Shown piece after piece: positions 3,613-51,200 of a stretch of 64,000 nucleotides of DNA (the first letter of the stretch is position 1; each line of letters begins with the position of its first letter). Source of the DNA: a virus (taxonomy: Duplodnaviria > Caudoviricetes); IMG/VR virus record IMGVR_UViG_3300034106_004043; one strand, written 5' to 3'. Both the position numbers and the translations under genes were made by a program. The notes below the pieces were generated by a model that ran no database searches, was not told where the DNA came from, and saw nothing but the letters and a program-made list of their open reading frames with translations.

Positions 3613-3774
3613 ATGGAAAATTTAAAAAAAACCGAAGAAAAAAAATGTACTAAATGTGATAAAATGAAACAAAGTATCGTTCCTCAAGTCGCAATTGGGG
3701 TGTTAGTATTTAGTTTCACTATCTATGGTATAGTTGAATTTGTTAAAGACATTATTGAATTACTTACCAAGTAA
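3613..3774 (+). CDS. small membrane protein (53 aa) with CxxC
   Basis: Manual translation MENLKKTEEKKCTKCDKMKQSIVPQVAIGVLVFSFTIYGIVEFVKDIIELLTK*, with one hydrophobic helix. It fills the intergenic gap. Confidence 0.55.
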   Translation: MENLKKTEEKKCTKCDKMKQSIVPQVAIGVLVFSFTIYGIVEFVKDIIELLTK

Positions 3775-5892
3775 TTCAATAATTTTATCTTTTACCATCT
3801 CAGATGTTATCTTTTTAGAACATTCAAACATTTTATCATTCCCCTTATTTATTGGACACCAATTCCAATCACCTGGGTCTAATCTAAACTTATTTGCACA
3901 TCCTCTACAAGTATTTTCAGGTGCACTAACTTTATAAACATTATCATAAGGTTCGTTAAACTCTTCAGTAAATCCTGAAATCAATACTGTTGGGATATCC
4001 AAAGCCCAAGTAACCCATGAAATACCACTTGATATTCCAATAAAGAATTCACAGGTAGATAACTCTTCAATCAGTTTATAGATTGAGCCAGAAGGGTTTT
4101 GTTTAGCACCTTTAGGATAAAAATTACCCATATACCCATCTTCCTCTTTTGAATAAATGATTACCTCATAACCAAGAGATATAAGATAATCAGTAATTTC
4201 TTGCCATCCTTTTGGGTTATTCCAATATTTGGATTGAGCGGTTGAATGAATACCCAATCCAACTCGTTTTTTCTTTAACTTGTTAGGGTTTTTAATTAAA
4301 GGTTTTACTTCCTTATATTCCAAACCTAAAATGTCTGTCGCGGTTTTTTGTAATGGACCTAATTTAAAGTCACTTGGGTGTCTATCAGTTTTAACATTAT
4401 CACCATCGTAAAACCAACCTATCTCATACATTGCGTATAGGTTATCAACCGTACTGCCAGGGGGGACAAATTGTATTTCAGGATATTGTTTTACAAACAA
4501 ATCGTTAAAGAATGTTGAACAGATAACCTTACAATTATGTTTTTTTCTAAATTCCTCAGCGTAAGGTGCCCAAGCGAATGTATCACCTAAAGATTTAGAA
4601 TCTAAAGCGATATATACTCGTTTGTTCTCCGCATTATATTTCTTTTCACTAATTAAATTACCTTCAGAGTAAATTTTTAAAGTATACTCATCAAAATATT
4701 TCTTACTTAATCTGACCCACATATTACAACCAATCTCCTCACGATATTCACAGTCACCACTCTGATTCCAAAACTCAACCAAATATCGTTTATCACTATT
4801 ACCCTTAATTTCAACTAACGCTCCGTTGATATAATGATTAATTACTTCAATTTTTTCAACCATCTCTTTTGGTTTTATTTCAGTATTTTCAAATACTTTA
4901 TCAAATCTTTGTTTTGTCTCAAGACTATTCAAATTTTTTCTACTGTTAATAAGGTCTTCATAAATTCTAACCATCCTTTTAGTAATAACACTCCAATCGT
5001 ATTTTTGTCTATCTAATTCAGTGTTATTTAAATATAAATCATAATTGTCAATTACTTGTTTAATACCACTAACTATTTGATTTACATCTCTTTCAACTAT
5101 AACCATTCCTTCTATTGTTTGTGAACCCAAATAAGTACCAACAACGGGTATATTACAAGATACCGCCTCTAATAATGTTAGGTTTGGATGTCCGGCTTCC
5201 AACATAGATGGATGTAAGAAGATTGAATGACTTTTATATAGTTCTAATATTTGTTCTTCATTTGGATTTGAGAACATTAAAGTTAACTTATCGTAATTTA
5301 ATAAGTCATTGTGATGTTCAAAGAATATTCTGTTATTTTCAGGACCAGCAACAGTAATAGGTAAATCTAATTTGATTGCGGATTCAATCGCATATCTAAA
5401 TCCTTTTCTATCGTAGGTTGAATCACCACCAATACCATTGTTTGCTAAACACAATAATTTATGTTCAGTTCTTTTTGGATTGTCATTTTTAAAGAAATCA
5501 GTATTAACACCATGTGATAGATAGAACAACTTATCTGTCTCATCAAAGTAATCAACTAAAAACTCAGCGTGGGTGAAAGATATCACAGACCTTTTAATTG
5601 CTTCTAAATTTTGTTGGTAGTTAGATGACTCCTTACCGTAATAAACAACGTGGTGGTCATGTAATGAGAAGATATAAGGGATACCTCTATTTGCCGCTTC
5701 AATAGCCAAATTAGCCATATGAATATGAATAATATCACTACTGTTAGTATCTACCTCATTAAGATATTTTATATCACATTGGTGTCCTAACTCTTTAATA
5801 TTGTTGTAATATTCCCATATTACTTTTTCAACCGCCCCCCAACCATTTGGTGGTATTGTAATAATTCCAGGTGTTACTTGTGTAATTCTCAT
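3760..5892 (-). CDS. fusion of a GT4 glycosyltransferase and a TibC/AAH-like (autotransporter heptosyltransferase family) domain
   Basis: N-half: PPNGWGAVE and EAGHPNLTLLEA (GT4 E-x7-E). C-half: SKSLGDTFAWAPY, FIGISSGISWVTWA, and C-x2-C-x13-C-x11-C (CRGC...WCP...FECSK) resembling the iron-finger motif. Confidence 0.8.
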   Translation of the reverse strand: MRITQVTPGIITIPPNGWGAVEKVIWEYYNNIKELGHQCDIKYLNEVDTNSSDIIHIHMANLAIEAANRGIPYIFSLHDHHVVYYGKESSNYQQNLEAIKRSVISFTHAEFLVDYFDETDKLFYLSHGVNTDFFKNDNPKRTEHKLLCLANNGIGGDSTYDRKGFRYAIESAIKLDLPITVAGPENNRIFFEHHNDLLNYDKLTLMFSNPNEEQILELYKSHSIFLHPSMLEAGHPNLTLLEAVSCNIPVVGTYLGSQTIEGMVIVERDVNQIVSGIKQVIDNYDLYLNNTELDRQKYDWSVITKRMVRIYEDLINSRKNLNSLETKQRFDKVFENTEIKPKEMVEKIEVINHYINGALVEIKGNSDKRYLVEFWNQSGDCEYREEIGCNMWVRLSKKYFDEYTLKIYSEGNLISEKKYNAENKRVYIALDSKSLGDTFAWAPYAEEFRKKHNCKVICSTFFNDLFVKQYPEIQFVPPGSTVDNLYAMYEIGWFYDGDNVKTDRHPSDFKLGPLQKTATDILGLEYKEVKPLIKNPNKLKKKRVGLGIHSTAQSKYWNNPKGWQEITDYLISLGYEVIIYSKEEDGYMGNFYPKGAKQNPSGSIYKLIEELSTCEFFIGISSGISWVTWALDIPTVLISGFTEEFNEPYDNVYKVSAPENTCRGCANKFRLDPGDWNWCPINKGNDKMFECSKKITSEMVKDKIIELLGK

Positions 5893-6575
5893 ATTAAACT
5901 AAAATTTTCATTTTTTCTTTTATCATAAGTTTCCCTATCTGTTGAAGCATATTTTTCATTCTCAATATCTAGTTCATCCATTGACCCTGGGTTAAAATAA
6001 TAATGTTTATGTAAATAAATAAAATCACCAATATATGTTATTTTATTTAAAATTTTACCGACTTGAGTAAGTTCATCATCACAGTAAAAAGAATAATAAA
6101 TAGGGTTAAATATATAACCAAATCTTTCATAATATTTTCTACCCATAACAGGATGTGTACAAATTAATTCATTTTGTATACCATCAGGAAAATGTAAAAT
6201 ACCGTCTAAATCAGGGTAAAACTCTAACATATATTTTCTAATATGTAAATCAATATTTTCTTTAGGAAATTCAAAATCGTCAGCAATATTCATAACAATA
6301 TCCCAATCAGATATTTTATTAATATTATAATTTGTGGCAATTATTTTACCTTTAGAGTCCGATGAAAATACTTTTATAATACTTGAATATCTATGATTTA
6401 AAATAAAATTTTTAATTTCATCTGAATTCATTGTATCATCGTCATTATCTATTGAGACTAAAATTATACAATTTTCATAATCGTATAATTTATCACATAA
6501 CTCATTAATTACATTAATAAATTTTTTAGGTCTACTCCTTGTTGCAAAATTAAATAGGATTTTTAAATTTTTCAT
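5889..6575 (-). CDS. GT-A fold glycosyltransferase (GT2-like)
   Basis: FATRSRP N-terminus, IDNDD, IADD (DxD-like), YCDDEL. 4-nt overlap with the next gene. Confidence 0.7.
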   Translation of the reverse strand: MKNLKILFNFATRSRPKKFINVINELCDKLYDYENCIILVSIDNDDDTMNSDEIKNFILNHRYSSIIKVFSSDSKGKIIATNYNINKISDWDIVMNIADDFEFPKENIDLHIRKYMLEFYPDLDGILHFPDGIQNELICTHPVMGRKYYERFGYIFNPIYYSFYCDDELTQVGKILNKITYIGDFIYLHKHYYFNPGSMDELDIENEKYASTDRETYDKRKNENFSLI

Positions 6576-6576
6576 A

Positions 6577-7317
6577 CTATTTTGTAAAAACTTTATATTC
6601 TTTATCTATAAATGACTCACCATCTACTTGAGTTGTTATTCTTTTATTTAAAACACCCATGGTCAATCTTTGTTCTGAACATATTATATTGAAAAACGTG
6701 TCAGCACAATCCCATCTATGTGTTCTCAACTGGTTCATTATTGTTTTACGTGATTTCTTTGAAAACATTATACATTGTAAACCAATTATTTTATTTGTAA
6801 TAAACAATAAATCTTGATTTGGTATTTCCCTAACCACATCAGATTGGTGCCATCCATAATCTAAGGTTTTAGTATCACCGAATGAAAAATAAGAAATGTC
6901 TTCCTGATTAACAATACTACACACCTGATTAACTTTATCTATAAACTCCTCAATCGGAACTTCTATAATACAATCACCTTCACAGACAATTAAGAAATCT
7001 AAATCATTATCAAATTCAGATAAGATACCTATTTTAAATGCTTCAAAACATCCGTAGTGAGCCGGTGTTAAAGCGTTACCATATTCAGGGTCATTAACAT
7101 CTTCATACTTACCCATTCTAACATTATGTGGTCTAACACTAGTATGAATTGGAGGTAAAGAAGCATATAACTCGTTCTGATGTAAAACATATTCAATACC
7201 ATAAGGGATTACCTGTTGTACAGATTTTCTTGATTCTTTTTCTCTATGTTCATTCTGTGTTGTCTGTAAATGAACTAATTTAATCTTATAATTCATATGA
7301 TTTTTTACGGTCTCCAT
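6577..7317 (-). CDS. GT25-like glycosyltransferase
   Basis: HYGCFEAF...FLIVCEGD resembles the GC..SH...ILEDD core of GT25. The start may be the second Met (MNYKIK). Confidence 0.55.
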   Translation of the reverse strand: METVKNHMNYKIKLVHLQTTQNEHREKESRKSVQQVIPYGIEYVLHQNELYASLPPIHTSVRPHNVRMGKYEDVNDPEYGNALTPAHYGCFEAFKIGILSEFDNDLDFLIVCEGDCIIEVPIEEFIDKVNQVCSIVNQEDISYFSFGDTKTLDYGWHQSDVVREIPNQDLLFITNKIIGLQCIMFSKKSRKTIMNQLRTHRWDCADTFFNIICSEQRLTMGVLNKRITTQVDGESFIDKEYKVFTK

Positions 7318-8900
7318 AATCCAATACCACCAAACCCTTGTGAGTGTTGACCATTTAATTTAACATTACCAGATGACTTAGTACATACTAAATTAATTTT
7401 TGTACCTTCATCTAAATCTTGCCAAAATTTATAAACCTGACCGGCGTAACTATCGGCGAATATATGGTTAGGGTCAATGTCGTGGAAACCAATCACACCA
7501 CGTGGTGATAATAAATTTTTATATAATTCAAAATCATGTTTAACACCATCATATGTGTGGTCACCATCAATAAAAATAAAATCGTATTTTGGACAAAAAT
7601 CTTTTACTTGTTCAAACATATCTTTAGTATGTGAGTCCCCTTGGAAGAATTTCCAATCTTCTCCGTGCATAAAATGATGTATAATTGATTGTCTTGGTTC
7701 AATATCTACTGAAACTTTCTTACCCGTTGATAGTTTTGACATCAACCAAAAGGTACTACCCATTGTCCCAATTTCTAATATATTATGAGGTTTAAACCCT
7801 CCTAGCCAATAGGATAATGTTAATATTTCTTCATACACCTGCATGAAAATACATTTTTCCATCAAATCAAAATCCAAACAATAATCCACTAACTCTTTTG
7901 GTTCATTAGTTTTTATAATATTTGTTTTTGTTGATTTAGAAAGTTGTTTAGATAATAAATTCACTATTGAATCGTAATAACGAATATGGTGATTATTATT
8001 ACATAGTTTAGATGTGTCAACTAATCCATCAGGTAGTGTATAGTCTTTAGTCCAATCCAAATATTCAATAAAACCAATTTTATTTTTCCAATATGTATCG
8101 AATAATTTAAAACAAAGTTTTCTATCATCTTCAGTTCCTAATATATATTCATATAAAAATCCATCTCTCATCGGTGGATTAGGTGACAATATAACAATAC
8201 GATTATTATAAATTTCTTTAATTTTTAAAATTGAATTAAAGTAACTATCCATCAACTCTAAACAAGCTTCTTTTAAAGTAATGTTCTTGTTTTCACAATG
8301 TTTATGAATTGTGTATCTGAAATCTATCTCACCCAAATAGAACACTAAAACATCTTTTTCTTGTATCGGAAGAGAATCAAGTAACCCTAAGAAGTCACCA
8401 TTAACAAATCGATTTAAACTTAATGAAGTCTGACTAACCCTTATAGGTACATGTCTCCCTACCCTATCAAATTTATTATTAGTATCGCCAAAACTAGCCC
8501 AAGCGTTTGAATCCCCTATAATCCAAGCTCTTTTAAGATATTCAGGATTAGATAAAGAATGATTACGCATTTCAAAAGATTTATGGTGAGTCTTAATTAC
8601 CTCATCATATATTATTTGATTAGTACTTAAATCTTCAACTTTAATTCTAACACCAAATTTTAAATTAGGTTTTTCATTATTATCAATTTCATCAACACTA
8701 AATCGAGTCCAAAAATTAATATTATTTGGAATTGTAACAGTGTCCGAACCTGGTATGTATTCGATATTAAAAAATGGGTCTAGTATAGTTAATTTTATAG
8801 TACTTTCATTACTGATTGGATTTTCAACACTATAATGTATTTCACAAACAGATTCTGTAATTAATCGTTTTTCTTCCAATCTAATTAAATTAAACTTCAT
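7305..8900 (-). CDS. multidomain protein: unknown N-terminal domain + SGNH/GDSL-like domain + class I SAM methyltransferase (Methyltransf_24-like)
   Basis: IIGDS and LGEID blocks (SGNH-like); LEIGT and DFIFIDGDHTYDGVKHDF...GFHD (Methyltransf_24 type). Confidence 0.7.
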   Translation of the reverse strand: MKFNLIRLEEKRLITESVCEIHYSVENPISNESTIKLTILDPFFNIEYIPGSDTVTIPNNINFWTRFSVDEIDNNEKPNLKFGVRIKVEDLSTNQIIYDEVIKTHHKSFEMRNHSLSNPEYLKRAWIIGDSNAWASFGDTNNKFDRVGRHVPIRVSQTSLSLNRFVNGDFLGLLDSLPIQEKDVLVFYLGEIDFRYTIHKHCENKNITLKEACLELMDSYFNSILKIKEIYNNRIVILSPNPPMRDGFLYEYILGTEDDRKLCFKLFDTYWKNKIGFIEYLDWTKDYTLPDGLVDTSKLCNNNHHIRYYDSIVNLLSKQLSKSTKTNIIKTNEPKELVDYCLDFDLMEKCIFMQVYEEILTLSYWLGGFKPHNILEIGTMGSTFWLMSKLSTGKKVSVDIEPRQSIIHHFMHGEDWKFFQGDSHTKDMFEQVKDFCPKYDFIFIDGDHTYDGVKHDFELYKNLLSPRGVIGFHDIDPNHIFADSYAGQVYKFWQDLDEGTKINLVCTKSSGNVKLNGQHSQGFGGIGLWRP

Positions 8901-8904
8901 ATTA

Positions 8905-9702
8905 TTATTCTGATTTATTTATTGTATAAGCACTTGTTGATGGTTCAAAACCTAAATTGATAATGTGGAATCTTTTATGACATAAAGATTTATATTTTTT
9001 TGACCACCTTTCAGCAAATTCCAATTCAACTTTAGTTTCATTTGGATTGAATGTTGTTGAAAATTCCCCTATTGACAATAGTTTTTTGACATTATGAACA
9101 CCAGGTCTTAATGAAAAACTTGGCCAGTTAATATATGTTAACCATAAGTCAGGTGTTTGAACTACTTGTAATGCCGAAACATCATCATAAAATAAATTAC
9201 AATTCAATGGTAAATTTGGGTCATAGTACCACTCCCAATAATTTTCATATTCAACAGGTTTGATATTATCAGGAAATTTTTTAAAACTCTGAGAATATCC
9301 AAAATAAGCATAACCATTATTTAAACTTAACGCATCTATCGCTTCAGTAATCTTGAATAAATCCATAAAAAGATAATCATCCTCCAATAAAAAACAATAA
9401 TCAGAATCAGTCTCGATTAATTTATCTCTCCAAGAATTTAATACTCTAGCGTGTCTAAAATTATCAGGAAATGAATTCGGGTAAAAGTGAGTGATGATTT
9501 TGTTTGTATTTGGAAAATAATCATTTAGTAATTTTTCCATTTCTCTTTTATCGTCATTATTAGATGAGTCGTCAAAGAAAATTATATCATCTATTATTTC
9601 CGTATCTAAACAAAAAACAGAAAATGCTTTAATAACACGTCTTAAGAAATGTAGTCTTTTACAAGACATTATTGTTAAAGATATTTTTTTATTATTATAC
9701 AT
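8905..9702 (-). CDS. GT-A fold glycosyltransferase-like protein
   Basis: TIMSCKR, FFDDSS and LLEDDY motifs; sits inside the glycosyltransferase cluster. Confidence 0.6.
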   Translation of the reverse strand: MYNNKKISLTIMSCKRLHFLRRVIKAFSVFCLDTEIIDDIIFFDDSSNNDDKREMEKLLNDYFPNTNKIITHFYPNSFPDNFRHARVLNSWRDKLIETDSDYCFLLEDDYLFMDLFKITEAIDALSLNNGYAYFGYSQSFKKFPDNIKPVEYENYWEWYYDPNLPLNCNLFYDDVSALQVVQTPDLWLTYINWPSFSLRPGVHNVKKLLSIGEFSTTFNPNETKVELEFAERWSKKYKSLCHKRFHIINLGFEPSTSAYTINKSE

Positions 9703-9718
9703 TTTTTAAATTTTAAAA

Positions 9719-11455
9719 TTAAGAAAATACCACATAATCAAGAATATTTTCATTTATAATATCGTATAAAAATTCATTTGTCTGAGTGTCATATACCGAT
9801 ACTTTTTTAATTTCACTATTAAAAATATTAAATGACCAATGACCATAATTTTCCAAAGTATAATAATAAGTTTCATTACTATCATCTAAAAAATTAACAA
9901 TTATTTTTCTTTCTGATTTAAAATTATTGTAATTATACGATAATACCATTTTAGAATCTTGTCCTAAAATATTATAAATTTTAATTGAGCATCCGTTAAA
10001 CTTTGATGATATATTACTAACTGTCGTTTCAGTATTCCAAATCGTACCCACAAAATCTTCATTCATGGATATTTCACCATTTTTTCTAATCAAAAATCCA
10101 TTATCTTTTTGATTAATATTGTGATAAAGATATTTTTCAACATTAATAAAATCAGTACCAAATCCATTATTTTGTAAATAATTTTTATAATCTTCCTCAC
10201 AATTAATCCTATTAATTATCTGTTGGAAGTATTCTATTTCACAATAAAAATAATGGAACGAAACATCTCTACCTTCATTAAAATAAAACATTCCCTTTTT
10301 GTTTTGAGTAGAACAAATCACTGGTACAGTTGTCATATATTCATAACCTTCTTCACTATATAAATCATCAACTTCAATTCTTTGGAAATGTGTAAACCCA
10401 AATGACTTACACAAATCTAATGAGTTAAACAAATTAACCATAACAGGTAATCCATGTTTTTGTATTGTATTTGTAACTTCATGAGTTGTTAATGAACCAA
10501 GGTTTTTCCAAAAAATAACTGGTTCGGAATTAGTGTATTCACCTTCAAAAAGAATGTTATTTGAGTTATATAAATGATAATCAACAATTTTTAATATATG
10601 TTCAGGAACAATAGTATTAGACACAAGAAGTATTGTATGGTTATACTTTTTTAAGTTATTAATACATAACTCCAACTTATTTAAAACATTTTCATTATGG
10701 ATAAAACAATCGACTATTGTTATTGTTTTAAATTCATCTTTAATATTTTGTCTTTTGAGTTCATTAGAAACTATTATGTTTTTTTTGTTTTTTTCTTCTT
10801 CCGAAATATTTGAAAACATACCATCATTTGATATTCGATAAATTCCCCCACATTTATGAATACACTTAATTAAACCGTGTTTACTAATTTCATAATTAAG
10901 CGGCCAATCAACATAAGGTAAATTTGTAAAATAATCTTTAATTAAATTTGGTATGTTTCTAAATACCCTCGCAAAAGATGCATGATTAATAGTTAATAAA
11001 TCATCTGTAGTTATATCGTCAAGAAATGAACTAATAAACAATTCAGGAACTGTAGGTATCTTGGTACCATCGGGATGCAAATATCTTGTTCCTGTACAAA
11101 CCATACTATAATTTGGACTGTTCTCTAAAAATTCAACTTCTTCATTTAAGATTGTATAATTATCAAAATAATCATCTCCGTCAATATAAGCAATGTATTT
11201 TGTTTTACAGTAATTTAATAAAGTTCTAATATTTTCAAAACCTCCTAAATTAGTATCACCATTTAAAATTATTAAATTAGGGTATTTTTCTTTTAATTTA
11301 ATTAAAACATCTTTAGTATTATCTGTCGACCCATCATCCCTTACTATCACATCAAACCCATAATTAATTTTTTGAGAGTATATTGAATCAATACACTCTT
11401 CAATATATTTTTCAAAATTATAAGATGGTACTACTACCGTAAGTATTTTTTTCAT
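9719..11455 (-). CDS. GT2 glycosyltransferase with a large unknown C-terminal domain
   Basis: VVVPSYNFEKYIEECIDSI, DDGSTD and YIAYIDGDDY are canonical GT2 motifs. Confidence 0.85.
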   Translation of the reverse strand: MKKILTVVVPSYNFEKYIEECIDSIYSQKINYGFDVIVRDDGSTDNTKDVLIKLKEKYPNLIILNGDTNLGGFENIRTLLNYCKTKYIAYIDGDDYFDNYTILNEEVEFLENSPNYSMVCTGTRYLHPDGTKIPTVPELFISSFLDDITTDDLLTINHASFARVFRNIPNLIKDYFTNLPYVDWPLNYEISKHGLIKCIHKCGGIYRISNDGMFSNISEEEKNKKNIIVSNELKRQNIKDEFKTITIVDCFIHNENVLNKLELCINNLKKYNHTILLVSNTIVPEHILKIVDYHLYNSNNILFEGEYTNSEPVIFWKNLGSLTTHEVTNTIQKHGLPVMVNLFNSLDLCKSFGFTHFQRIEVDDLYSEEGYEYMTTVPVICSTQNKKGMFYFNEGRDVSFHYFYCEIEYFQQIINRINCEEDYKNYLQNNGFGTDFINVEKYLYHNINQKDNGFLIRKNGEISMNEDFVGTIWNTETTVSNISSKFNGCSIKIYNILGQDSKMVLSYNYNNFKSERKIIVNFLDDSNETYYYTLENYGHWSFNIFNSEIKKVSVYDTQTNEFLYDIINENILDYVVFS

Positions 11456-11467
11456 TATTTATCCCTA

Positions 11468-11836
11468 TTATTTTTTTAGAATTATTGCATTCCCCTCAAT
11501 TAAAATTTCATCATCTTTAAAAATTATTGTTTTTAAAAAAAACTTATTTCCGTCTTTTTTATCAAGTTCTACAATCACCTCAATTTCATCATTAATAAAA
11601 CAAGGGTTTTTAAAAATCAAATTTTGTTGTAGATATATTGAACCCTTACCAGGATATACTTCAGATATCAATCTTGAAAAAAAGGAACTTAATAACATCC
11701 CGTGAGCAACTCTTTTACCAAAAATAGTTGATTTAGCGTATTCCTCATCTAAGTGTATTGGGTTTTTATCTCCTGATAACTCAGAGAAATCTTTAACCAT
11801 ATCTTCAGAAATTAAAATTTTTTCAGATACTCGCAT
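11468..11836 (-). CDS. MaoC/PhaJ-family (R)-specific enoyl-CoA hydratase
   Basis: FSELSGDKNPIHLDEEYA...VAHGML hotdog-fold hydratase-2 motif. Confidence 0.9.
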   Translation of the reverse strand: MRVSEKILISEDMVKDFSELSGDKNPIHLDEEYAKSTIFGKRVAHGMLLSSFFSRLISEVYPGKGSIYLQQNLIFKNPCFINDEIEVIVELDKKDGNKFFLKTIIFKDDEILIEGNAIILKK

Positions 11837-12375
11837 TCTAAATTTATTATATTTTTTTTTCTATCCTTTATTTCTTTAGCCGGTATTCCAACCGCAATTT
11901 TAGACTCAGATATGTTTTTATTTACTAATGATAAACTACCTATAGCACTATAATCTTCAATCTCAACATTTGGTAATATTATAGTACCCGCACCAATAAT
12001 AACATGTTTACCTAATATGACTTTACCTGAAATCACATTTGTAAATTCTTTATTAACTGTGGGATTTGTCATGAATTCCCCACTATAATCATCTGTTGAT
12101 GTATATATGGATACTCTAGAAGATAGTCCTGAAAAATCTTTCATTACAATTTCTTCATTACCCATTAAACTACAGAAAATTGCAATATGGACATTATTAC
12201 CTAACTTAATTCCTCCATTACCAGCACTTATCACACAAAAATCATCAATTCTAACATTATTACCCAATTCAATATTTTTAGGATTATAAATTGAACATCT
12301 ATTAGAAATTAAAACATTATCCCCAATAGATTTGAAACCTATTTCGACCAACTCATTTTTACTATAAAATCCCAT
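11812..12375 (-). CDS. hexapeptide-repeat sugar N-acyltransferase, AntD-like
   Basis: FYSKNEL..IGFKSIG.NVLIS...SIYNP..I..GNNVRIDDFC and DDYSG...P closely follow the Bacillus AntD sequence as I recall it; left-handed beta-helix hexapeptides. Confidence 0.8.
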   Translation of the reverse strand: MGFYSKNELVEIGFKSIGDNVLISNRCSIYNPKNIELGNNVRIDDFCVISAGNGGIKLGNNVHIAIFCSLMGNEEIVMKDFSGLSSRVSIYTSTDDYSGEFMTNPTVNKEFTNVISGKVILGKHVIIGAGTIILPNVEIEDYSAIGSLSLVNKNISESKIAVGIPAKEIKDRKKNIINLECEYLKKF

Positions 12376-13028
12376 TATTTTTTATATATTTCAAATTTTG
12401 ATAAGTCAGGATATGGTAGTTCCAAATCTTCATTATGTTTAGGTGTACCATCCATGTTATAAAATTGATTCATAAGTAATAAACCTCTTGAAGCAATTTC
12501 AGGCATCATGTAAAAATTCCATCCTAACATATCAAAATTATCATCATGATACGATACTTCATTCCTACCTGAATATCTCGCTCGTTTAAACCACTTGTAA
12601 GCCTCAAAATCGTCAGTTAAGATTGCACCACCTTTACCAAGTTTTAAGTGTTTATATGGGCCTGTAAATGATAAACACATATGTGTTCCTGGTATATACA
12701 TATCACTTGTAAATCTTAATGCCGAATCCCAAACATTTGTTGGTGATAGTTGATACGCTCCTTTTAATGTTGACCCATAAACAGGTTCAAACTCGACTTT
12801 ACCTCCAGCGTGGATAATCTCGCAAGGTACTGACGGGTATGTTCTACTTGGTATTTTAATTGTTTTACCATTAATTTTCTCATAATACAACGCTAAAAAT
12901 AAAGCGTTACTTTGATTATCAACTGTAACAGCATATGGTGCACCAGCATATTCAGCTAATTGTTCTTCAAATTTTTTTGTGACATCGTAAACCGATGATG
13001 ACAATGTACCAGGTGTTCTTAATTTCAT
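12375..13028 (-). CDS. DegT/DnrJ/EryC1/StrS-family sugar aminotransferase (short form, 217 aa)
   Basis: FEEQLAEYAGAPYAVTVDNQSNALFLAL, and SFTGPYKHLKLGKGG (PLP lysine region), GWNFYM. Confidence 0.8.
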   Translation of the reverse strand: MKLRTPGTLSSSVYDVTKKFEEQLAEYAGAPYAVTVDNQSNALFLALYYEKINGKTIKIPSRTYPSVPCEIIHAGGKVEFEPVYGSTLKGAYQLSPTNVWDSALRFTSDMYIPGTHMCLSFTGPYKHLKLGKGGAILTDDFEAYKWFKRARYSGRNEVSYHDDNFDMLGWNFYMMPEIASRGLLLMNQFYNMDGTPKHNEDLELPYPDLSKFEIYKK

Positions 13029-13029
13029 A

Positions 13030-15636
13030 TTATTTTATTTTTTTAGCAATATAATTATCAGTTGTTGTATGCGTAATTGTAAATCCAAATTCATGTAGTT
13101 TTTGTATTATTTTTTGATTACTATTTTCATCATTAGTTTTTTCAACACACAATAATCTACATTTTTTTAATTTATTTTGTATTTCATCTATTACAATTAA
13201 TTCATGCCCTTCAACGTCAATATTAATGAAATCATAGGTATCTTTTTCTAAATCATAATATTCAACAATATCATTAAAATTGTATACTATTATTTGATTT
13301 TCTTTCCAACTCATTCCAATAAATCTTTCTTTATTTTCAGGATGTATAGTAGATAATATTCCCTGCGGAGCATCGCTCACATCCCAGTTCAAACTTTCAT
13401 GTATATTTATCACATCTGTTTTATTTGAAACACCCGCATTAATACATTTAATATTTTTATTTTTTTTATATAAATTCTGTAATTTTAAAAAAGCAGTTTG
13501 GGTAGGTTCAACACAAACTCCATCCCATCCTAATAATGCAAGCGCGTGTGTATTTGAAAATGTTTTACCGTCATTCGCACCAATATCTAAAAATTTATTT
13601 GTTTTTGGGTCTTCCCCATCAAAAAATGATAGAATTATTTCCTGTTCATTGTTTTGTGAAAAATCTAAAATGTCATTGTTAACTTTATTTTTAGGTTTAG
13701 CAAAGATTACTCCATGTTTAGCGTTTTTATCCGCTTTAGTTTTACGTCCCATTTCATAAATGATAATATCATATTCAAAATCATTTTTTTCAAGTTTTTC
13801 AAGTATGATATTAATTTGTCCATTGGTATTTTCATGAAACTCAATCATAAATCTATCCACCAATCCAATCTGTTCATCAGTAATTGATTCAAAAATTGGG
13901 TATTCACCACCCTCAATATCACATTTAAATAATGATATTCTACCATAGTCATTATCTTTGTAGATATCATCAATAGTAATAGTGTCACAACTAATTAAAT
14001 TGTTAAGTTGACCATATTCTCCCACATTACCGTCAAAAACATTTGACCCAATAGTTGAATTTTCTTTTGAAAATCTGAAATCAATCTTGGTATGTTCCTT
14101 GTAAACAGGGTTCATATAAATGGTTGATTTAGATAAATCACCATCTAAATGATATTCAATACTTTCCCTTAGGTATGGATTTGCCTCAACTAAAATAACT
14201 TTTTTAGCATTTATGGTATACATGTACTTAGCGAATAACCCAACATTAGCACCAATATCAATTACAGTATCAAGATTTTCTAACTTTAAATCATCAAAAC
14301 ATCTATCAACAAAAAACTCATAATAGTTAATGTAATTACAATCCAAAGGTTTAAATTTAAATTCAGGTATTCTTGGGTAGAAATTAGGATTAACAATTAA
14401 CTCTTGACCAAAAACTAATTCGTTTGTTTCCACATCATAGAACTCAACTAAAAATCCTCTAAAGTTAGGATTGTCTTTGAATTTTTTAATATGAATTGGG
14501 ATAGGCATTGTCCAATAAAATATTGGGTATTCCAAAGGTAAATTAAACCAATACATCGGAGCCTTTGAAGTTATGTCTCTAATACTAACATTAAAATCAA
14601 ACTTTTTATTGCCGGTATAGTTAATGGTAATCTGATTATTATCACCATTAAAATCAAAACTGAAAAGAGAGTCAATACCCCCAACATTTAATACATCCAT
14701 CATATTATTTACATCTTTATCTATATCTCCAGTTAAAAATGTAACTTGAGGTAGTTTATCATATTTTCCACAATACACATCCAAATTATACATCATCATA
14801 GGAATACCATATTCAATAGCCTCCTTAATGGCAATTGGATTTAATTCTTTATTATTTCTATCCCCTTTTGATGGGAACATAAACAAATCGGACGCTTCCA
14901 AAAATTCATTTACATTATCCTTTTCACCCCAAATAATACAGTTTTCAGGTTTGTTATTCATCAGTGGTTCCCAATAACTTCTAAAGTTATCTGCCTGATT
15001 TCCAATGAAATGAAATTTAATTTTACTATTTTCTAACTTACGAGCAATTTCAAAAATGTATTTTTGATTTTTTCTTTCAGTGAATAACCCAACATTAACA
15101 ACATGTTTCCACCCTTTATCGAACCCAAGTTTTTCTTGGAGCATGTTCTTTCTTTTTTCTCTGTTTTCAATAGGATACTCAATTACCTCATAAGGTATGT
15201 CAAACATTGAATACTGAATAGCATTAAACACACTAACAAAGATAAACTTGTCAGGAAACCAAACCTTAGATGTTGGTTTAAAACTTGAATCGTGCGTGGT
15301 TTCAAATATTTTATATGGACGATTTTGTCTATAAATTTGTCTTGTAATGTTATTATCCATGAAAAATTCAGGGAACTCCTCCATTGATATAATGTCAGGT
15401 TGGAAATCGTTAATAACATCAATTAAAACATTCTTATCATCCCATAGAGTAATAAGATTGTCCTCACCAATCATATTTTTAATTCTGTTCTTCTGAACAA
15501 CAAAATCCCAAGAATAACACCCGTATTCAACACACTTTATAATATAATCGTCTTTAAGAAGTTGAATCTTATTCGTAGTAACCTGTGGTAGTCCCCCAGT
15601 AGATAGGTGTGGGACTATAAATAATATTTTCTTCAT
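13030..15636 (-). CDS. GT4 glycosyltransferase fused to two FkbM-family methyltransferase domains
   Basis: PHLSTGGLPQ, RKNQK and ELNPIAIKEA (GT4). Two FkbM cores: IDIGANVG...KCDIEGGE and LDIGANDG...NIDVEGHE. ATG at 15636 preferred. Confidence 0.8.
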   Translation of the reverse strand: MKKILFIVPHLSTGGLPQVTTNKIQLLKDDYIIKCVEYGCYSWDFVVQKNRIKNMIGEDNLITLWDDKNVLIDVINDFQPDIISMEEFPEFFMDNNITRQIYRQNRPYKIFETTHDSSFKPTSKVWFPDKFIFVSVFNAIQYSMFDIPYEVIEYPIENREKRKNMLQEKLGFDKGWKHVVNVGLFTERKNQKYIFEIARKLENSKIKFHFIGNQADNFRSYWEPLMNNKPENCIIWGEKDNVNEFLEASDLFMFPSKGDRNNKELNPIAIKEAIEYGIPMMMYNLDVYCGKYDKLPQVTFLTGDIDKDVNNMMDVLNVGGIDSLFSFDFNGDNNQITINYTGNKKFDFNVSIRDITSKAPMYWFNLPLEYPIFYWTMPIPIHIKKFKDNPNFRGFLVEFYDVETNELVFGQELIVNPNFYPRIPEFKFKPLDCNYINYYEFFVDRCFDDLKLENLDTVIDIGANVGLFAKYMYTINAKKVILVEANPYLRESIEYHLDGDLSKSTIYMNPVYKEHTKIDFRFSKENSTIGSNVFDGNVGEYGQLNNLISCDTITIDDIYKDNDYGRISLFKCDIEGGEYPIFESITDEQIGLVDRFMIEFHENTNGQINIILEKLEKNDFEYDIIIYEMGRKTKADKNAKHGVIFAKPKNKVNNDILDFSQNNEQEIILSFFDGEDPKTNKFLDIGANDGKTFSNTHALALLGWDGVCVEPTQTAFLKLQNLYKKNKNIKCINAGVSNKTDVINIHESLNWDVSDAPQGILSTIHPENKERFIGMSWKENQIIVYNFNDIVEYYDLEKDTYDFINIDVEGHELIVIDEIQNKLKKCRLLCVEKTNDENSNQKIIQKLHEFGFTITHTTTDNYIAKKIK

Positions 15637-15707
15637 ACCTAAAAAAAATAACAATATTTATTTCATAAATCCATAGAATATAGTATCTTTACAAAAAAAT
15701 ATACACA

Positions 15708-16096: not shown

Positions 16097-17017
16097 CTAC
16101 CCCCTCTTGTGTTTAACGTACATATTAACATAGAAATCACCAATACCGTCATTTTTAAAACCCTTACCTTTAACACGTAGGGGTTTTGTTGTATCTATCT
16201 CTTCAGGTAATTTAATATTTAGACTACCTGATGGATGTGGGACATCTAAAGTATCTTTATTAAAATCATCTAACGACATTTGATAATTGTATACTAAGTC
16301 GTTGTTTACCTTATCAAAACCATCCTGTGGTGTTATTTTAACTTTTAATATTAAATCACCAAACAAACCATTATGATAATCACCCATAGATGATGCTTTA
16401 ATCAATTGACCATCAGATATACCATGAGGTAAATTGATATTAATAGTTTCAAACTTATTATTTTTACCTTCACCAGCACAGGAGAAACAAACATTCTTTA
16501 ATGAATATCCCTTACCTTGACATGAGTTACATGTTGTCTGTAAAATATTTGAGAAGAAAGAATTACCAACTCTTTGTACTATTCTACCTGAACCATTACA
16601 AGTGTTACAAGTAATTCTATCCCCACCCTGTCCATTACAGGTGTTACAATTAACTTTTCGACTAAACTGAACATCTATATTATGAGCTAAAAAAGAATCA
16701 ATTGTACCTATATTTAAATCAACTACTTTATCAGGTGCTCTTTTCTGTTTTGGACCCGCCATATTATTAAACAAATCGTTAAACATACTAAATGGGTCTG
16801 AGTCAAACCCTCCAAACGGATTACTACCACCTAAATCATATTGTCTTCTTTTTTCATCATCACCCAAAGTATCATACGCTTGAGAAATTTTCTTAAATGT
16901 CTCTTCATTACCACCTTTATCAGGGTGATGTTCAACTGCTAATTTTCGATACGCCTTTTTAATTTCATCTTGTGTTGATGACCTATCGACTCCAAGTATT
17001 TCGTAAAAATTTTCCAA
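16097..17017 (-). CDS. dnaJ: DnaJ co-chaperone (J domain, short G/F region, four CxxCxGxG motifs, C-terminal domain)
   Basis: FYEILGV...IKKAYRKLA...HHPDKGG, followed by [24 protein letters not shown] and CFSCAGEG. Confidence 0.92.
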
Positions 17018-45823: not shown

Positions 45824-45833
45824 AATTAAATTT

Positions 45834-48268: not shown

Positions 48269-51200
48269 TTATATAAAGTTAAAATTGTTTGCTGTTGTAT
48301 AAACAAGTCCTAATGTGAATGTTCCACCCGCAGCTCCTGCAGCTCCTGAGGTACCTGATGAACCAGTAATACCCGATGAACCTGAAGTACCTGATGAACC
48401 TGATGTTCCAGATGTACCGTTAACAATAATAGTAACTGCACATACGTCATTTACTGTAAGTGTTGTATCACCACCATTTGTATATAATGCACCTGTAAAC
48501 AAATAATCACTACCACTTACACTTACATTGTTGAAGTAGTAAATATCAATTTTATTTGAACCATTTAAATTAAAAATTAAATATACAATCCCTTGTGTTC
48601 CAACTAAGTTTAAAAAATAATCACTTAAATCTGCTGAGTCAGCAGTTACTACGTCAAATTTCAAATCATACACCGCTACACCCGCTCCTTGATAAGTAAA
48701 TTGACCTGAAGCAGGTGCACCTCCTGTCCCACCACCGTATTGGTATTGAAGACCACCTTTATTACCTTGACTACCTGATGTGCCTGATGAACCACTTGTT
48801 CCTCTTGAACCCGTACTTCCGCTAGACCCCGAACTACCTGAAGAACCCGAACTTCCACTAGAACCACTTGTTCCCGATGAACCTGAAGAACCTGAACTAC
48901 CAGATGAACCTGATGTGCCAGAACTACCTGATGAACCACTTGAACCTGATGTTCCTGAGCTTCCGCTTGTCCCTGAAGAACCAAAACCTGATGAACCAGA
49001 TGTTCCACTAATACCATCTAATCCGCTTGTTCCTGATGAACCTGAACCTGAGCTACCTGATGAACCAGCACTTCCTGAAGAACCGCTAGTTCCACTACTT
49101 CCTGTAATACCTGAAGAACCTGAGCTTCCACTTGAACCTGATGAGCCAGAAGAACCTGATGTTCCTGAACTACCGCTAGTACCCGAAGAACCTGTATTAC
49201 CGCTTGAACCTGAACTTCCTGAAGAACCGCTAGTTCCTGAGCTACCACTTGTACCTGTACTACCCGATGAACCCGAACTTCCTGAAGAACCACTTGTTCC
49301 TGATGAACCTGATGTACCAGAACTTCCAGTATTACCTGACGAGCCTGAACTACCCGCACTTCCACTTGAACCTGATGTTCCTGAGCTTCCACTTGTTCCT
49401 GATGAACCTGTATTACCAGAACTACCACTACTTCCTGAAGAACCACCTGACCCTGATGTACCCGAAGAACCAGATGTTCCTGAGCTACCACTTGAACCTG
49501 AAGTTCCACTCGTTCCTCTTGACCCTGTACTACCAGATGAACCAGAACTACCACTAGAACCTGATGACCCACTACTACCTGAAGTTCCTGAAGAACCGCT
49601 AGTTCCACTTGACCCAGCACTTCCACTAGAACCTGAACTTCCGCTTGACCCCGAACTACCTGAAGAGCCTGATGTACCACTTGAACCAGAAGTTCCTGAT
49701 GAACCACTATTACCCGAAGAACCTGAGCTTCCACTTGAGCCAGAAGACCCTGATGTTCCTGATGAACCGCTAGTACCAGATGAACCTGTGTTTCCACTTG
49801 ACCCTGAACTACCAGCACTTCCTGAAGAACCACTTGTCCCTACTGAACCTGAAGTACCAGCACTACCGCTAGAACCAGAACTACCTGTACTACCACTTGA
49901 GCCTGATGTTCCAGAACTACCACTTGTTCCTGTACTACCCGATGAACCGCTAGTTCCTGAAGTACCACTTGTTCCTCTTGAGCCTGTACTTCCGCTAGAA
50001 CCCGAAGACCCACTTGAGCCTGAACTTCCAGCACTTCCTGAAGAACCACTTGTACCTACCGAACCTGAAGTACCAGCACTACCGCTAGAACCACTACTTC
50101 CACTTGAACCAGATGAACCTGACGTTCCACTACTACCAGATGCCCCTGAACTTCCACTAGACCCTGACGAGCCACTTGAACCAGAAGAACCGCTAGAACC
50201 TGAAGTCCCTGATGAACCAGAGCTACCTGATGTTCCGCTACTTCCATTAGCACCTGATGTACCAGCAGAGCCAGAACTACCACTACTTCCCGAAGAACCT
50301 GAACTTCCACTTGTACCAGATGTTCCCGAACTTCCGTTAACTCCTGATGTTCCTGAACTACCACTTGAACCTGATGAACCAGCACTTCCTGATGAACCAC
50401 TTGACCCAGATGTTCCACTGCTTCCATTAGCACCTGATGTACCAGCACTTCCTGAAGAACCAGTTGAACCTGAACTTCCACTAGAACCACTACTACCTGA
50501 TGTTCCACTACTTCCATTGGCTCCAGATGTTCCTGATGAACCTGAACTACCACTTGAACCCGAACTACCACTTGAGCCAGAAGAACCTGATGTACCAGAG
50601 CTACCATTAGAACCAGAAGTTCCTGAAGACCCACTTGAACCTGAGCTACCTGATGTTCCCGATGTTCCTGAGGTTCCTGAAGAACCACTAGTACCTCTTG
50701 AACCCGTACTACCCGATGACCCTGAACTACCACTACTTCCACTAGAACCTGATGTTCCAACAGAACCAGAACTACCGCTACTTCCACTTGAACCAGATGA
50801 ACCACTTGAGCCAGATGTTCCTGAACTACCATTAGCACCTGATGTACCAGAACTTCCAGCACTACCACTAGAACCTGAAGAACCACTAGACCCTGAACTT
50901 CCTGATGTTCCACTTGAACCAGAAGAACCTGTACTTCCTGAACTACCACTTGAACCAGATGTCCCAGTTGAACCTGAACTTCCTGATGAACCAGCACTTC
51001 CGCTAGACCCCGAACTACCTGATGTTCCACTGCTTCCATTGGCCCCCGATGTACCACTACTTCCTGAGCTTCCAGCACTACCGCTAGAACCTGACGAACC
51101 ACTTGTACCTGAAGAACCGTTAGTTCCAGATGTTCCCGACGAACCTGAAGAACCACTAGAACCTGAAGAACCTGATGTACCCGAAGTACCTGATGTTCCT

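What the first reader, a model, noticed from the sequence alone, without database searches (positions are those of the whole stretch)
3760..5892. GT4 fused to an iron-finger protein O-heptosyltransferase domain in a phage
Seen: the C-terminal half has SLGD..AW.PY and C-x2-C-x13-C-x11-C. Known: TibC/AAH enzymes have an LGD catalytic Asp and a four-Cys iron finger, and they hyper-heptosylate serines in repetitive autotransporter passenger domains. Inference: this is the best candidate for the initiating protein O-glycosyltransferase on the serine-rich repeat, with the GT4 domain extending the chain. The donor may not be ADP-heptose, since that pathway is not universal in Bacteroidota and no gmh/hld genes are in this window.
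Basis: partly seen in the sequence, partly recalled or inferred. Interest (0 to 1): 0.75.

Follow-up and report, generated by a model that had tools for sequence, protein, structure and literature searches.

The report
Phage fibre-glycosylating GT4–TibC-like fusion enzyme
A roughly 240-300 kb lake phage encodes one protein that joins an ordinary sugar transferase to a complete relative of the E. coli adhesin-glycosylating enzyme TibC, and comparison of about 120 related loci indicates that this branch of the family acts on proline-free Gly-Ser/Thr-Ser/Thr repeat proteins such as the phage's own 4135-residue fibre, not on autotransporter adhesins.

Summary
ORF 3760-5892 (-) encodes 710 aa: a GT4 domain, then a complete TibC/Aah-type module. 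That module scores 258 bits on TIGR04414 (cut-off 200), matches PDB TibC at E 9e-53, and superposes on it at Foldseek TM 0.84. The catalytic Asp, the phosphate and heptose contacts and all four iron-finger Cys are conserved.

A tree of 104 TibC-like domains splits (100% support) into two clades. Clade B holds E. coli Aah. It has AIDA-I-like autotransporters within 10 kb in 27/52 loci and Gly-Ser/Thr-Ser/Thr repeats in 0/52. Clade A holds this phage, all other phage copies and some bacteria. It has such repeats within 10 kb in 24/44 unbiased loci (p 7e-11), often in the adjacent gene, and autotransporters in 0/67.

In this window the 4135-aa repeat fibre lies 42 kb away. A GT60 gene just beyond the window is a local rival initiator.

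The donor sugar is unresolved. The adenine-reading Glu-Arg pair is invariant in clade B but lost here. No ADP-heptose genes were found in sister phage contigs, although 63% of sampled Bacteroidota carry one.

This scan reached the same reading earlier on other phage DNA. I found no published description.

The parts
3760..5892 (-). Whole gene: 710-aa GT4 - TibC-like fusion (stop codon 3760-3762). It is the last gene of a ten-gene co-oriented operon.
   Evidence: ORF list and translation. Its start overlaps the stop of the upstream ORF by 4 nt.
4939..5892 (-). GT4 (GT-B, retaining-type) glycosyltransferase domain, aa 1-318
   Evidence: Pfam PF00534 34.6 bits and PF13692 33.8 bits, both above cut-off. 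Foldseek matches BshA, MshA and PimA. Many residues are invariant across 39 full-length homologues.
4633..4857 (-). Beta-barrel domain equivalent to TibC residues 1-97, aa 346-420. It follows a helical linker at aa 319-345.
   Evidence: The AF2 model has seven strands at aa 348-418. The Foldseek alignment covers 374/381 TibC residues. The TIGR04414 match starts at model position 28.
3763..4632 (-). TibC-like catalytic domain with thumb and iron finger, aa 421-710
   Evidence: phmmer to 4RAP at E 9e-53. Asp437 corresponds to TibC D110, Thr551/Lys555 to T226/K230 and Trp626 to W305; all are invariant in 39 homologues.
4561..4593 (-). SLGDTFAWAPY motif holding the catalytic base Asp437 (nt 4582-4584)
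   Evidence: It aligns with TibC D110, which is mutated to Ala in the 4RB4 sequence.
3820..3909 (-). Four-Cys iron-finger motif C662-x2-C665-x13-C679-x11-C691
   Evidence: It aligns with TibC C339/C342/C358/C370 (PMC4358343) and is invariant in 39/39 homologues.
5889..15654 (-). Nine upstream genes of the same operon. They include a GT25-like 246-aa ORF, a CmcI-like methyltransferase, a GT2, a MaoC hydratase, a hexapeptide acyltransferase, a DegT aminotransferase and a GT4+methyltransferase+FkbM protein.
   Evidence: Pfam. Gene junctions span -25 to +16 nt. GT25 lead from atlas features.
13030..15654 (-). 874-aa GT4-methyltransferase-FkbM protein. Its GT4 domain is the commonest companion of clade-A TibC-like genes elsewhere.
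   Evidence: Pfam. tblastn finds this GT4 type in 21/54 clade-A loci and 0/52 clade-B loci, directly next to TibC in L147, L092 and L087.
48269..60676 (-). Proposed acceptor: a 4135-aa protein with about 3760 aa of proline-free Gly-Ser/Thr-Ser/Thr triplets (1805 Ser, 604 Thr)
   Evidence: Translation and composition. GC is 0.49 against about 0.30 for the flanks. The assignment as substrate is an inference from neighbourhoods in other genomes.

Best explanation
The gene encodes a two-module cytoplasmic protein O-glycosyltransferase made late in infection, as the last gene of a ten-gene glycan operon.

The C-terminal module is a complete TibC/Aah-type enzyme: beta-barrel, GT-B-like catalytic domain, thumb and Cys4 metal finger. 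By analogy with TibC, Asp437 would activate a Ser hydroxyl of the acceptor, which attacks C1 of a nucleotide sugar whose beta-phosphate is held by Thr551 and Lys555, with Trp626 on the sugar. The first sugar would thus be placed on serines of proline-free Gly-Ser/Thr-Ser/Thr repeats. In this phage that means above all the 4135-aa fibre protein.

The fused GT4 module would then add further sugar. The other transferases and methyltransferases of the operon would extend and cap the chain.

Shown here: domain identity, conserved catalytic and metal residues, fold, operon structure, and the clade-wide neighbourhood link to Gly-S/T-S/T repeat genes. Inferred: the acceptor in this phage, the order of action of the two modules, Ser specificity, and the donor. 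The donor may be ADP-heptose supplied by the host, or another nucleotide sugar, because the adenine-reading Arg is missing.
For: Family and fold: TIGR04414 258 bits against cut-off 200; TibC 4RAP at E 9e-53; Foldseek TM 0.84 over 374/381 residues.

Catalytic residues: equivalents of D110, T226, K230, W305, F368 and the four Cys are invariant in 39 full-length homologues. The residue roles are taken from PMC4358343.

Neighbourhood, forward direction: among viral contigs found by TibC homology alone, Gly-S/T-S/T ORFs lie within 10 kb in L015-18, L020, L022, L023, L025, L028 and L030. In L016-18 they are the next gene downstream, and they carry tail-fibre chaperone-like C-termini as judged by eye.

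Neighbourhood, reverse direction: of 120 viral stretches (1.03 Mb) chosen only by a (GGNWSNWSN)x8 pattern, 7 carry a TibC-like gene. In L067 a GT4-TibC fusion lies 69 bp upstream of a 2567-aa repeat fibre on the same strand. By contrast, only 4 of 50,697 deposited phage records have a TibC-like domain.

Tree: clade A has repeats in 24/44 unbiased loci and clade B in 0/52, Fisher p 6.7e-11. AIDA-I-like genes occur in 27/52 clade-B and 0/67 clade-A loci. E. coli Aah beside AIDA-I falls in clade B.

Bacterial clade-A genes sit beside small signal-peptide or lipoprotein genes with (GTS)n/(GSS)n repeats. All 5 phage records tested that carry a TibC-like gene contain the repeat pattern. TibC modifies Ser but not Thr, for example in QN-S-GG.
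Against: In this window the fusion gene is 42 kb from the fibre gene, not adjacent to it. A GT60 homologue and HtrL/YibB-like genes lie much closer to the fibre.

Neighbourhood is not activity, and nothing here shows that the fibre is glycosylated at all. 20 of 44 unbiased clade-A loci show no repeat within 10 kb, although many of these are short contigs.

Phage structural genes and glycosylation genes may cluster for reasons other than an enzyme-substrate relation.

The Arg that reads adenine in TibC is Leu607 here, so the chemistry may differ from heptosylation. The thumb residues needed for the TibC ring are only partly conserved. A homodimer prediction gave no verdict.
Confidence: 0.6

Rival explanations
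1. The giant fibre is initiated by the GT60-type polypeptide GlcNAc-transferase encoded just upstream of the fibre module. The GT4-TibC fusion would then serve another acceptor, such as a different fibre, a capsid or tail protein, or Thr-Pro linkers, or would add only secondary sugars.
For: In sister contig G003 a PF11397 (GT60) protein, E 1.1e-68, lies about 5.4 kb upstream of the fibre gene. It sits in a co-oriented run with a weak GT2 match (below its Pfam cut-off) and the HtrL/YibB-like gene that is at 62314-63984 in the window. The TibC fusion is 42 kb away.
Against: Neither GT60 nor its four operon partners was found in any of the 120 repeat-selected viral stretches, whereas TibC-like genes were found in 7. 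The two enzymes are not exclusive: TibC is Ser-specific, and the fibre has both Ser and Thr.
Confidence: 0.2
2. The enzyme works on a non-protein acceptor, as LPS-core GT9 heptosyltransferases do. It would remodel the host's surface glycan during infection, or build a free or lipid-linked oligosaccharide.
For: There is a weak Pfam GT9 match (23 bits). The operon contains sugar-nucleotide tailoring genes typical of polysaccharide clusters. PHROGs files the N-terminus under 'moron, auxiliary metabolic gene and host takeover'.
Against: The specific TibC features are all present: beta-barrel, thumb and iron finger, with TM 0.84 to TibC. LPS heptosyltransferase models score only 12-13 bits. No flippase, polymerase or lipid-carrier genes were seen in the operon. 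The clade-wide adjacency to repeat-protein genes also argues against it.
Confidence: 0.08
3. The TibC-like module is a non-catalytic scaffold or targeting factor, as has been discussed for the Burkholderia relative BimC, and only the GT4 half is an enzyme.
For: Some BAHT relatives are discussed with roles other than heptosyl transfer (paper listed; not read in detail). The adenine-contacting Arg is missing.
Against: The catalytic Asp, the phosphate-binding Thr and Lys and the sugar-contacting Trp are invariant across 39 fusion homologues and nearly so across clade A. That pattern is expected only under selection for catalysis.
Confidence: 0.04

Closest known systems
TibC (ETEC) and Aah (DAEC), the bacterial autotransporter heptosyltransferases (BAHT family; TIGR04414; PDB 4RAP/4RB4; Yao et al. 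2014, PMC4358343)
   Same: The protomer architecture is the same: beta-barrel, atypical GT-B catalytic domain, thumb and Cys4 iron finger. The catalytic Asp in LGD is the same, as are the equivalents of T226, K230, W305 and F368. Sequence identity is about 35-40% and TM 0.84. Both are cytoplasmic enzymes expected to hyper-glycosylate Ser in long repetitive proteins.
   Different: This enzyme lies in a sister clade, split with 100% SH-aLRT support. It has no autotransporter partner; the neighbours are Gly-S/T-S/T repeat proteins instead. The Glu-Arg pair that reads adenine is invariant in the Aah clade but lost here (Lys606-Leu607). It is fused to a GT4 domain and is phage-encoded. The dodecameric ring, iron binding and heptose use are untested.
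Mycobacteriophage virion glycosylation (Freeman et al. 2023, Cell Host Microbe; cited in PMC12619734)
   Same: Phage-encoded glycosyltransferases O-glycosylate the phage's own structural proteins.
   Different: In the mycobacteriophages the acceptors are C-terminal tails of capsid and tail-tube subunits. No TibC-type enzyme or Gly-X-Y fibre is mentioned in the passage of PMC12619734 that I read; I did not read the primary paper.
Bacillus anthracis BclA / anthrose system (from general knowledge, not tested here)
   Same: A collagen-like Gly-X-Thr repeat protein is heavily O-glycosylated. The sugar pathway uses an aminotransferase, an N-acyltransferase and an enoyl-CoA hydratase, and that trio has counterparts at 11468-13028 in this operon.
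   Different: That system is not known to include a TibC-type initiating enzyme. It belongs to a bacterial exosporium rather than a phage, and its repeats contain Pro.
LPS-core heptosyltransferases WaaC/WaaF (CAZy GT9, PF01075)
   Same: Distantly related GT-B fold, with ADP-heptose-type donor contacts.
   Different: The match is only 12-23 bits. These enzymes lack the beta-barrel, thumb and iron finger, and their acceptor is lipid A-Kdo.

Membership tests
BAHT (TibC/Aah; TIGR04414) | Score above the curated cut-off of the family model | tested here: met
   258.4 bits against cut-off 200, E 9.9e-77, model positions 28-372 of 374.
BAHT (TibC/Aah; TIGR04414) | Protomer fold: N-terminal beta-barrel, catalytic domain, thumb and finger | tested here: met
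   The AF2 model (pLDDT 87.7) matches 4RAP chains at TM 0.84, rmsd 2.9 A, over 374/381 columns.
BAHT (TibC/Aah; TIGR04414) | Catalytic base Asp110 in the LGD motif | tested here: met
   Asp437 aligns with D110 and is invariant in 39/39 fusions.
BAHT (TibC/Aah; TIGR04414) | Four iron-coordinating Cys (C339, C342, C358, C370) | tested here: met
   C662, C665, C679 and C691 align with them and are invariant. Metal binding itself cannot be tested here.
BAHT (TibC/Aah; TIGR04414) | Donor contacts Thr226, Lys230 and Trp305 | tested here: met
   T551, K555 and W626 are invariant.
BAHT (TibC/Aah; TIGR04414) | Arg286 contacting adenine N1 (basis of ADP specificity) | tested here: not met
   The aligned residue is Leu607. 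Arg occurs in 1/39 fusions and 12/52 clade-A sequences, against 52/52 in clade B.
BAHT (TibC/Aah; TIGR04414) | Thumb with two hydrophobic residues (F265, V266), and assembly into a dodecamer | tested here: inconclusive
   The aligned residues are Tyr587-Met588. The second position varies, and half of the fusions lack three residues just after it. A homodimer prediction gave no verdict.
BAHT (TibC/Aah; TIGR04414) | Partner autotransporter with strand-loop-strand repeats as acceptor | tested here: not met
   No AIDA-I-like gene was found in 0/67 clade-A loci, against 27/52 clade-B loci. None was seen among the window ORFs that were scanned.
BAHT (TibC/Aah; TIGR04414) | Same clade as the characterised enzymes | tested here: not met
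   Aah falls in clade B and the window in clade A; the split has 100% SH-aLRT support. The tree used a quick IQ-TREE search with LG+G4.
BAHT (TibC/Aah; TIGR04414) | Transfer of heptose from ADP-heptose to Ser | not testable with these tools
   Needs an enzyme assay or mass spectrometry.
GT4 (Pfam Glycos_transf_1, retaining GT-B) | Family model above cut-off and a GT-B fold like characterised GT4 enzymes | tested here: met
   PF00534 34.6 bits (cut-off 26.4) and PF13692 33.8 bits (cut-off 27). Foldseek matches BshA, MshA and PimA at E about 1e-11 to 1e-12. The N-lobe model PF13439 is below its cut-off (19.4 against 28.5).

The most novel reading that the evidence does not exclude
Clade A of the TibC family may be a widespread, undescribed protein O-glycosylation system dedicated to proline-free Gly-Ser/Thr-Ser/Thr repeat proteins. 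The acceptors would be phage fibres, up to micrometre scale if the repeat is extended, and small secreted or lipid-anchored proteins of Methylococcales and other Gammaproteobacteria. The enzymes work with modular partners (GT4, GT2, FkbM). Having lost the adenine-reading Arg, many members may use a donor other than ADP-heptose.
Probability: 0.45. Interest if true: 0.78.

Novelty: new variant of a known kind. Interest (0 to 1): 0.6.

Why it matters
BAHT enzymes are known only as virulence-linked partners of autotransporter adhesins. A sister clade with a different acceptor class would widen the family's biology. The acceptors would be collagen-like, proline-free Gly-Ser/Thr repeats, found in phages and in environmental bacteria.

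It would also give a concrete enzyme-substrate pair for studying phage virion glycosylation, which is currently documented experimentally mainly in mycobacteriophages. And it would explain how fibres with thousands of hydroxyls are decorated.

The pair can be tested directly by co-expression. The clade-specific loss of the adenine-reading Arg offers a natural experiment on donor specificity. The module could also become a tool for glyco-engineering Ser-rich repeats.

Tried and rejected
- Whole genome: none is held for this window, so sister IMG/VR contigs G002 and G003 (about 240 kb, estimated 82% complete) were used instead.
- megablast of 24 kb of the window against deposited phages: no match.
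I used the reverse test and the clade-B loci as controls instead.
- Host inference from Bacteroidota-type promoters (TTG...TAnnTTTG): 7 on the coding strand against 3.9 in shuffles, with a shuffle maximum of 12. This is not significant, so the host is left undetermined.
- ADP-heptose genes in phage records carrying clade-A genes: gmhA was absent from 5 records. rfaE domain II was found in only 1 of 15 records, at 111 bits and below its cut-off. Most of these records are incomplete, so this is not proof of absence.
- The 'cytidylyltransferase like protein' near the Mel-JY01 TibC gene: no NCBIfam match, so no support for an HldE-like role.
- Homodimer prediction for aa 340-710: no verdict, and therefore no evidence for or against binding.
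- Literature searches for TibC/BAHT in phages or with collagen-like repeats found nothing relevant.
- PHROGs gave only a generic glycosyltransferase hit for the N-terminus.
Full report
**1. The observation**

ORF 3760-5892 on the minus strand is open for 710 aa. SLGDTFAWAPY lies at aa 434-444. C-x2-C-x13-C-x11-C lies at aa 662-691. Both were re-translated from nt 4561-4593 and 3820-3909.

They are part of a strong family match and not chance:
- NCBIfam TIGR04414 (hepto_Aah_TibC) scores 258.4 bits against a curated cut-off of 200, E 9.9e-77, over aa 369-705.
- phmmer against PDB finds only TibC (4RAP and 4RB4), at E 9e-53.
- The N-terminal half passes Pfam Glycos_transf_1 and Glyco_trans_1_4.
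- The generic GT9 model reaches only 23 bits and the LPS heptosyltransferase models 12-13 bits. The similarity is therefore to TibC/Aah specifically.

**2. Structure**

I built an AlphaFold2 model on an alignment of 39 full-length homologues (pLDDT 87.7; pTM 0.54, so the mutual orientation of the two halves is not fixed). The model shows a GT-B domain at aa 1-318, a helical linker, a seven-stranded beta unit at aa 348-418, and then the catalytic domain.

Foldseek ranks 21 TibC chains first, at TM 0.84, rmsd 2.9 A and 374 of 381 columns. Retaining GT4 enzymes (BshA, MshA, PimA) follow, presumably through the N-terminal half, since the table gives no aligned ranges. The whole TibC protomer is therefore present, including the beta-barrel that Yao et al. 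found essential (PMC4358343).

**3. Residues**

I used the residue roles given in PMC4358343 and the printed alignment.

| TibC residue | Role | Window residue |
|---|---|---|
| D110 | catalytic base | Asp437 |
| T226, K230 | beta-phosphate contacts | Thr551, Lys555 |
| W305 | heptose O4 contact | Trp626 |
| P300 | stereoselectivity | Ser621 (the paper gives Ser-294 for AAH; the Aah variant in L244 aligned with Ala) |
| F368 | contact (mutant insoluble) | Phe689 |
| C339, C342, C358, C370 | iron finger | Cys662, Cys665, Cys679, Cys691 |

All but position 621, which is Ser in 23 and Gly in 16, are invariant in 39 fusion homologues.

One defining contact is missing. Arg286, which reads adenine N1, corresponds to Leu607. 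That column is Thr, Val, Ile or Leu in the fusions.

The thumb pair F265/V266 corresponds to Tyr587-Met588. The first position stays hydrophobic, the second varies, and half of the family has a three-residue deletion just after it.

**4. Setting**

The gene is the last of ten co-oriented genes between 15654 and 3760, with junctions of -25 to +16 nt. The others include:
- a GT4-methyltransferase-FkbM protein,
- a DegT aminotransferase, a hexapeptide acyltransferase and a MaoC hydratase,
- a GT2,
- a CmcI-like methyltransferase,
- three ORFs without Pfam matches, one of which looks GT25-like by language-model features (a lead only).

Copies of the gene at 92-97% protein identity lie on IMG/VR contigs of up to 242 kb, with estimated completeness 82%. 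The same fusion occurs at 41.5% identity in the 735-kb uncultured phage LR756501. A GT4-FkbM-TibC protein occurs in the cultured Microcystis phage Mel-JY01.

The family is large. More than 1800 word-sharing relatives were found, many of them full-length at 50-60% identity, and some carry an added FkbM or GT2 domain. An exhaustive search with the TibC-like part alone found 715 clusters at E <= 1e-30, in proteins of about 260 to 2033 aa.

**5. What the TibC-like module acts on**

The window holds a 4135-aa ORF (48269-60676, minus strand). About 3760 of its residues are proline-free Gly-Ser/Thr-Ser/Thr triplets, with 1805 Ser and 604 Thr. It lies 42 kb from the fusion gene, so this window alone says little. 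I therefore tested the link in other genomes, in both directions.

*Forward test.* Among viral contigs retrieved by TibC homology alone, ORFs with such repeats lie within 10 kb in L015-18, L020, L022, L023, L025, L028 and L030. In L016, L017 and L018 the repeat ORF is the next gene downstream on the same strand. Its C-terminus looks like the intramolecular chaperone of tail fibres and spikes, judged by eye and not by HMM. All five whole records tested contain the repeat pattern.

*Reverse test.* 120 viral stretches (1.03 Mb) were chosen only by the DNA pattern (GGNWSNWSN)x8.
- Seven hold a TibC-like gene.
- In L067 a GT4-TibC fusion ends 69 bp upstream of a 2567-aa repeat fibre on the same strand.
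- For scale, only 4 of 50,697 deposited phage records (2.3 Gb) hold a TibC-like domain. The two collections differ, so this comparison is only rough.
- Other transferases of this phage (GT2, GT60 and its operon) were not found in those 120 stretches.
- The GT4 domain of ORF 13030-15654 was found in five of them. In three (L147, L092, L087) it lies directly beside the TibC-like gene.

**6. Internal control from cellular genomes**

A scan of one genome per prokaryote species returned 80 loci. I built a tree of 104 TibC-like domains (IQ-TREE quick search, LG+G4). It splits with 100% SH-aLRT support into two halves.

| | Clade A | Clade B |
|---|---|---|
| Members | the window, every phage copy, and bacterial loci of Methylococcales, other Gammaproteobacteria, a Burkholderiaceae MAG, Bdellovibrionota and Bacteroidota | Burkholderia and relatives, Selenomonadales, Victivallales, and E. 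coli Aah |
| Gly-S/T-S/T repeats (at least 8 triplets) within 10 kb | 31/51; 24/44 after removing the 7 loci ascertained by the repeat | 0/52 |
| AIDA-I-like sequence within 10 kb | 0/67 | 27/52 |

- E. coli Aah was taken from a plasmid where it sits next to AIDA-I, and it falls in clade B.
- The repeat difference gives Fisher p 6.7e-11.
- In the clade-A bacteria the neighbouring genes encode small proteins with signal peptides or lipoboxes followed by (GTS)n or (GSS)n.
- The Glu285-Arg286 pair is invariant in clade B (50/52 and 52/52), but Arg is present in only 12/52 clade-A sequences.
- GT4 genes of the two types found in this operon accompany clade A (21/54 and 6/54 loci) and never clade B.

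Caveats:
- Some MAG contigs in clade A may be mis-binned phage DNA.
- Related loci are not fully independent.
- The tree used a quick search.

**7. Mechanism proposed**

The TibC-like module would use Asp437 as base to transfer a first sugar to Ser of the repeats in the cytoplasm. This follows what TibC does on TibA, where only Ser is modified, for example in QN-S-GG. The GT4 half and the other operon enzymes would extend and methylate the chain. The order of action is inferred from the recurrent but variable partners around a constant TibC-like core.

**8. Donor sugar**

For ADP-heptose:
- Family membership, and conserved phosphate and sugar contacts.
- 127 of 201 sampled genomes of the phylum of a Flavobacteriales MAG carry rfaE domain II above its cut-off.
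- All five cellular genomes that hold clade-A genes carry it as well.

Against ADP-heptose, or at least leaving it open:
- The adenine-reading Arg is lost.
- The sister contigs lack gmhA and rfaE domain II.
- Only 1 of 15 phage records has a match to rfaE domain II, and that match is weak.
- The sister contig encodes dTDP-glucose 4,6-dehydratase and a GDP-mannose-dehydratase-like enzyme, so the phage does tailor dTDP- and GDP-linked sugars.

The host was not established. A DnaJ-like N-terminus (recognised by eye) and the lake origin recall the 'moraphages' predicted to infect Flavobacteriia (PMC12619734), but I did not test membership in that group.

**9. Rival within this phage**

A note from this scan (e1-5342801) pointed to an operon beyond the window's end. 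In sister contig G003 I confirmed a GT60 homologue (PF11397, E 1.1e-68) about 5.4 kb upstream of the fibre gene. It could initiate on the fibre as well, or instead. It shows no association with repeat genes elsewhere. The two enzymes may also divide Ser and Thr between them, which is speculation.

**10. Comparison and novelty**

By model score and fold the domain is a BAHT-family member. However, it fails three defining features of the characterised enzymes: the autotransporter partner, the adenine-reading Arg, and clade membership with Aah. It is best described as a sister-clade variant with a new acceptor class, fused to GT4 and carried by a phage.

Automatic annotation already labels such proteins 'autotransporter strand-loop-strand O-heptosyltransferase', which is misleading for this clade. 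I found no paper describing phage TibC-like enzymes or a BAHT link to collagen-like repeats.

Follow-up agents of this scan reached the same reading on other phage DNA (e1-5322121, e1-5322334, e1-3970572). Those are unchecked AI notes. The tests reported here were run independently of them.

**11. Verdict**

It is unresolved for the donor and for which enzyme initiates in this particular phage. All functional claims rest on sequence, predicted structure and gene neighbourhood. No activity has been measured.

Noticed in passing
window 48269-60676 (-): A 4135-aa ORF with about 3760 aa of proline-free Gly-Ser/Thr-Ser/Thr triplets (S 1805, G 1309, T 604) and small unique end domains. Its GC is 0.49 against about 0.30 around it. 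A 3784-aa antisense ORF is a by-product of the repeat.
   Followed up: partly
L159:10129-11373 (sister contig G003; just beyond the window's end at 64000): A GT60-type polypeptide GlcNAc-transferase homologue (PF11397, E 1e-68) heads a co-oriented run with a weak GT2 match (below its Pfam cut-off) and the HtrL/YibB-like gene that is at window 62314-63984. It lies about 5.4 kb upstream of the giant fibre gene and is a second candidate protein O-glycosylation system.
   Followed up: partly
window 11468-13028 (-): A MaoC hydratase, a hexapeptide acyltransferase and a DegT aminotransferase lie side by side, the enzyme trio of the Bacillus anthrose pathway (from general knowledge). The DegT ORF is only 217 aa against a 360-position profile, so it may be truncated or split.
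   Followed up: no
window 6577-7317 (-): A 246-aa ORF with no Pfam hit looks GT25-like by language-model features (score 0.97, viral clusters). A homologue at 39% identity sits directly upstream of the GT4-TibC fusion in L157.
   Followed up: partly
L160:1201-2169 and L161:966-8375 (sister contig G002): The phage genome encodes dTDP-glucose 4,6-dehydratase (TIGR01181, 401 bits, above cut-off), a GDP-mannose 4,6-dehydratase-like protein (380 bits, just under the cut-off of 415), further SDR reductases or epimerases, and sugar acetyl- and aminotransferase-like ORFs. These form a second sugar-nucleotide island.
   Followed up: partly
L172:11181-12062, L167:11205-11855, L176:8850-9800, L171:11190-11522, L184 and L187 (bacterial genomes): Methylococcales, Burkholderiaceae and other gammaproteobacterial genomes carry small signal-peptide or lipobox proteins made largely of (GTS)n/(GSS)n, directly beside clade-A TibC-like genes. 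I know of no description of these probable secreted glycoproteins.
   Followed up: partly
window 44915-47621 (-): Three tandem paralogues of about 300 aa. Two of them were scanned and match the Pfam Gly_rich_2 domain. All three have poly-Gly tracts and a conserved C-terminal 'GLV/MVIIxCW'. A 92-aa ORF ending in a Thr-Pro linker (44627-44905) lies next to them.
   Followed up: no
window 16097-17017 (-): An ORF whose N-terminus resembles a DnaJ J-domain (recognised by eye; no HMM was run). The aquatic jumbo 'moraphages' predicted to infect Flavobacteriia are reported to carry DnaK/DnaJ (PMC12619734). Membership in that lineage was not tested.
   Followed up: no
L163:9152-9986 (Microcystis phage Mel-JY01, PP395634): Plus-strand frames with GSSGTSGSS repeats run through a stretch annotated as two minus-strand hypothetical genes, about 0.7 kb downstream of the GT4-FkbM-TibC gene. 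A repeat-protein gene may have been missed or frameshifted in the annotation.
   Followed up: no
one search hit list (P0122, P0132, P0135, P0236 and others): Some environmental proteins contain two to four TibC-like stretches in one chain, or place the module at the N-terminus, middle or C-terminus of proteins up to 2033 aa. The module behaves as a mobile building block.
   Followed up: no
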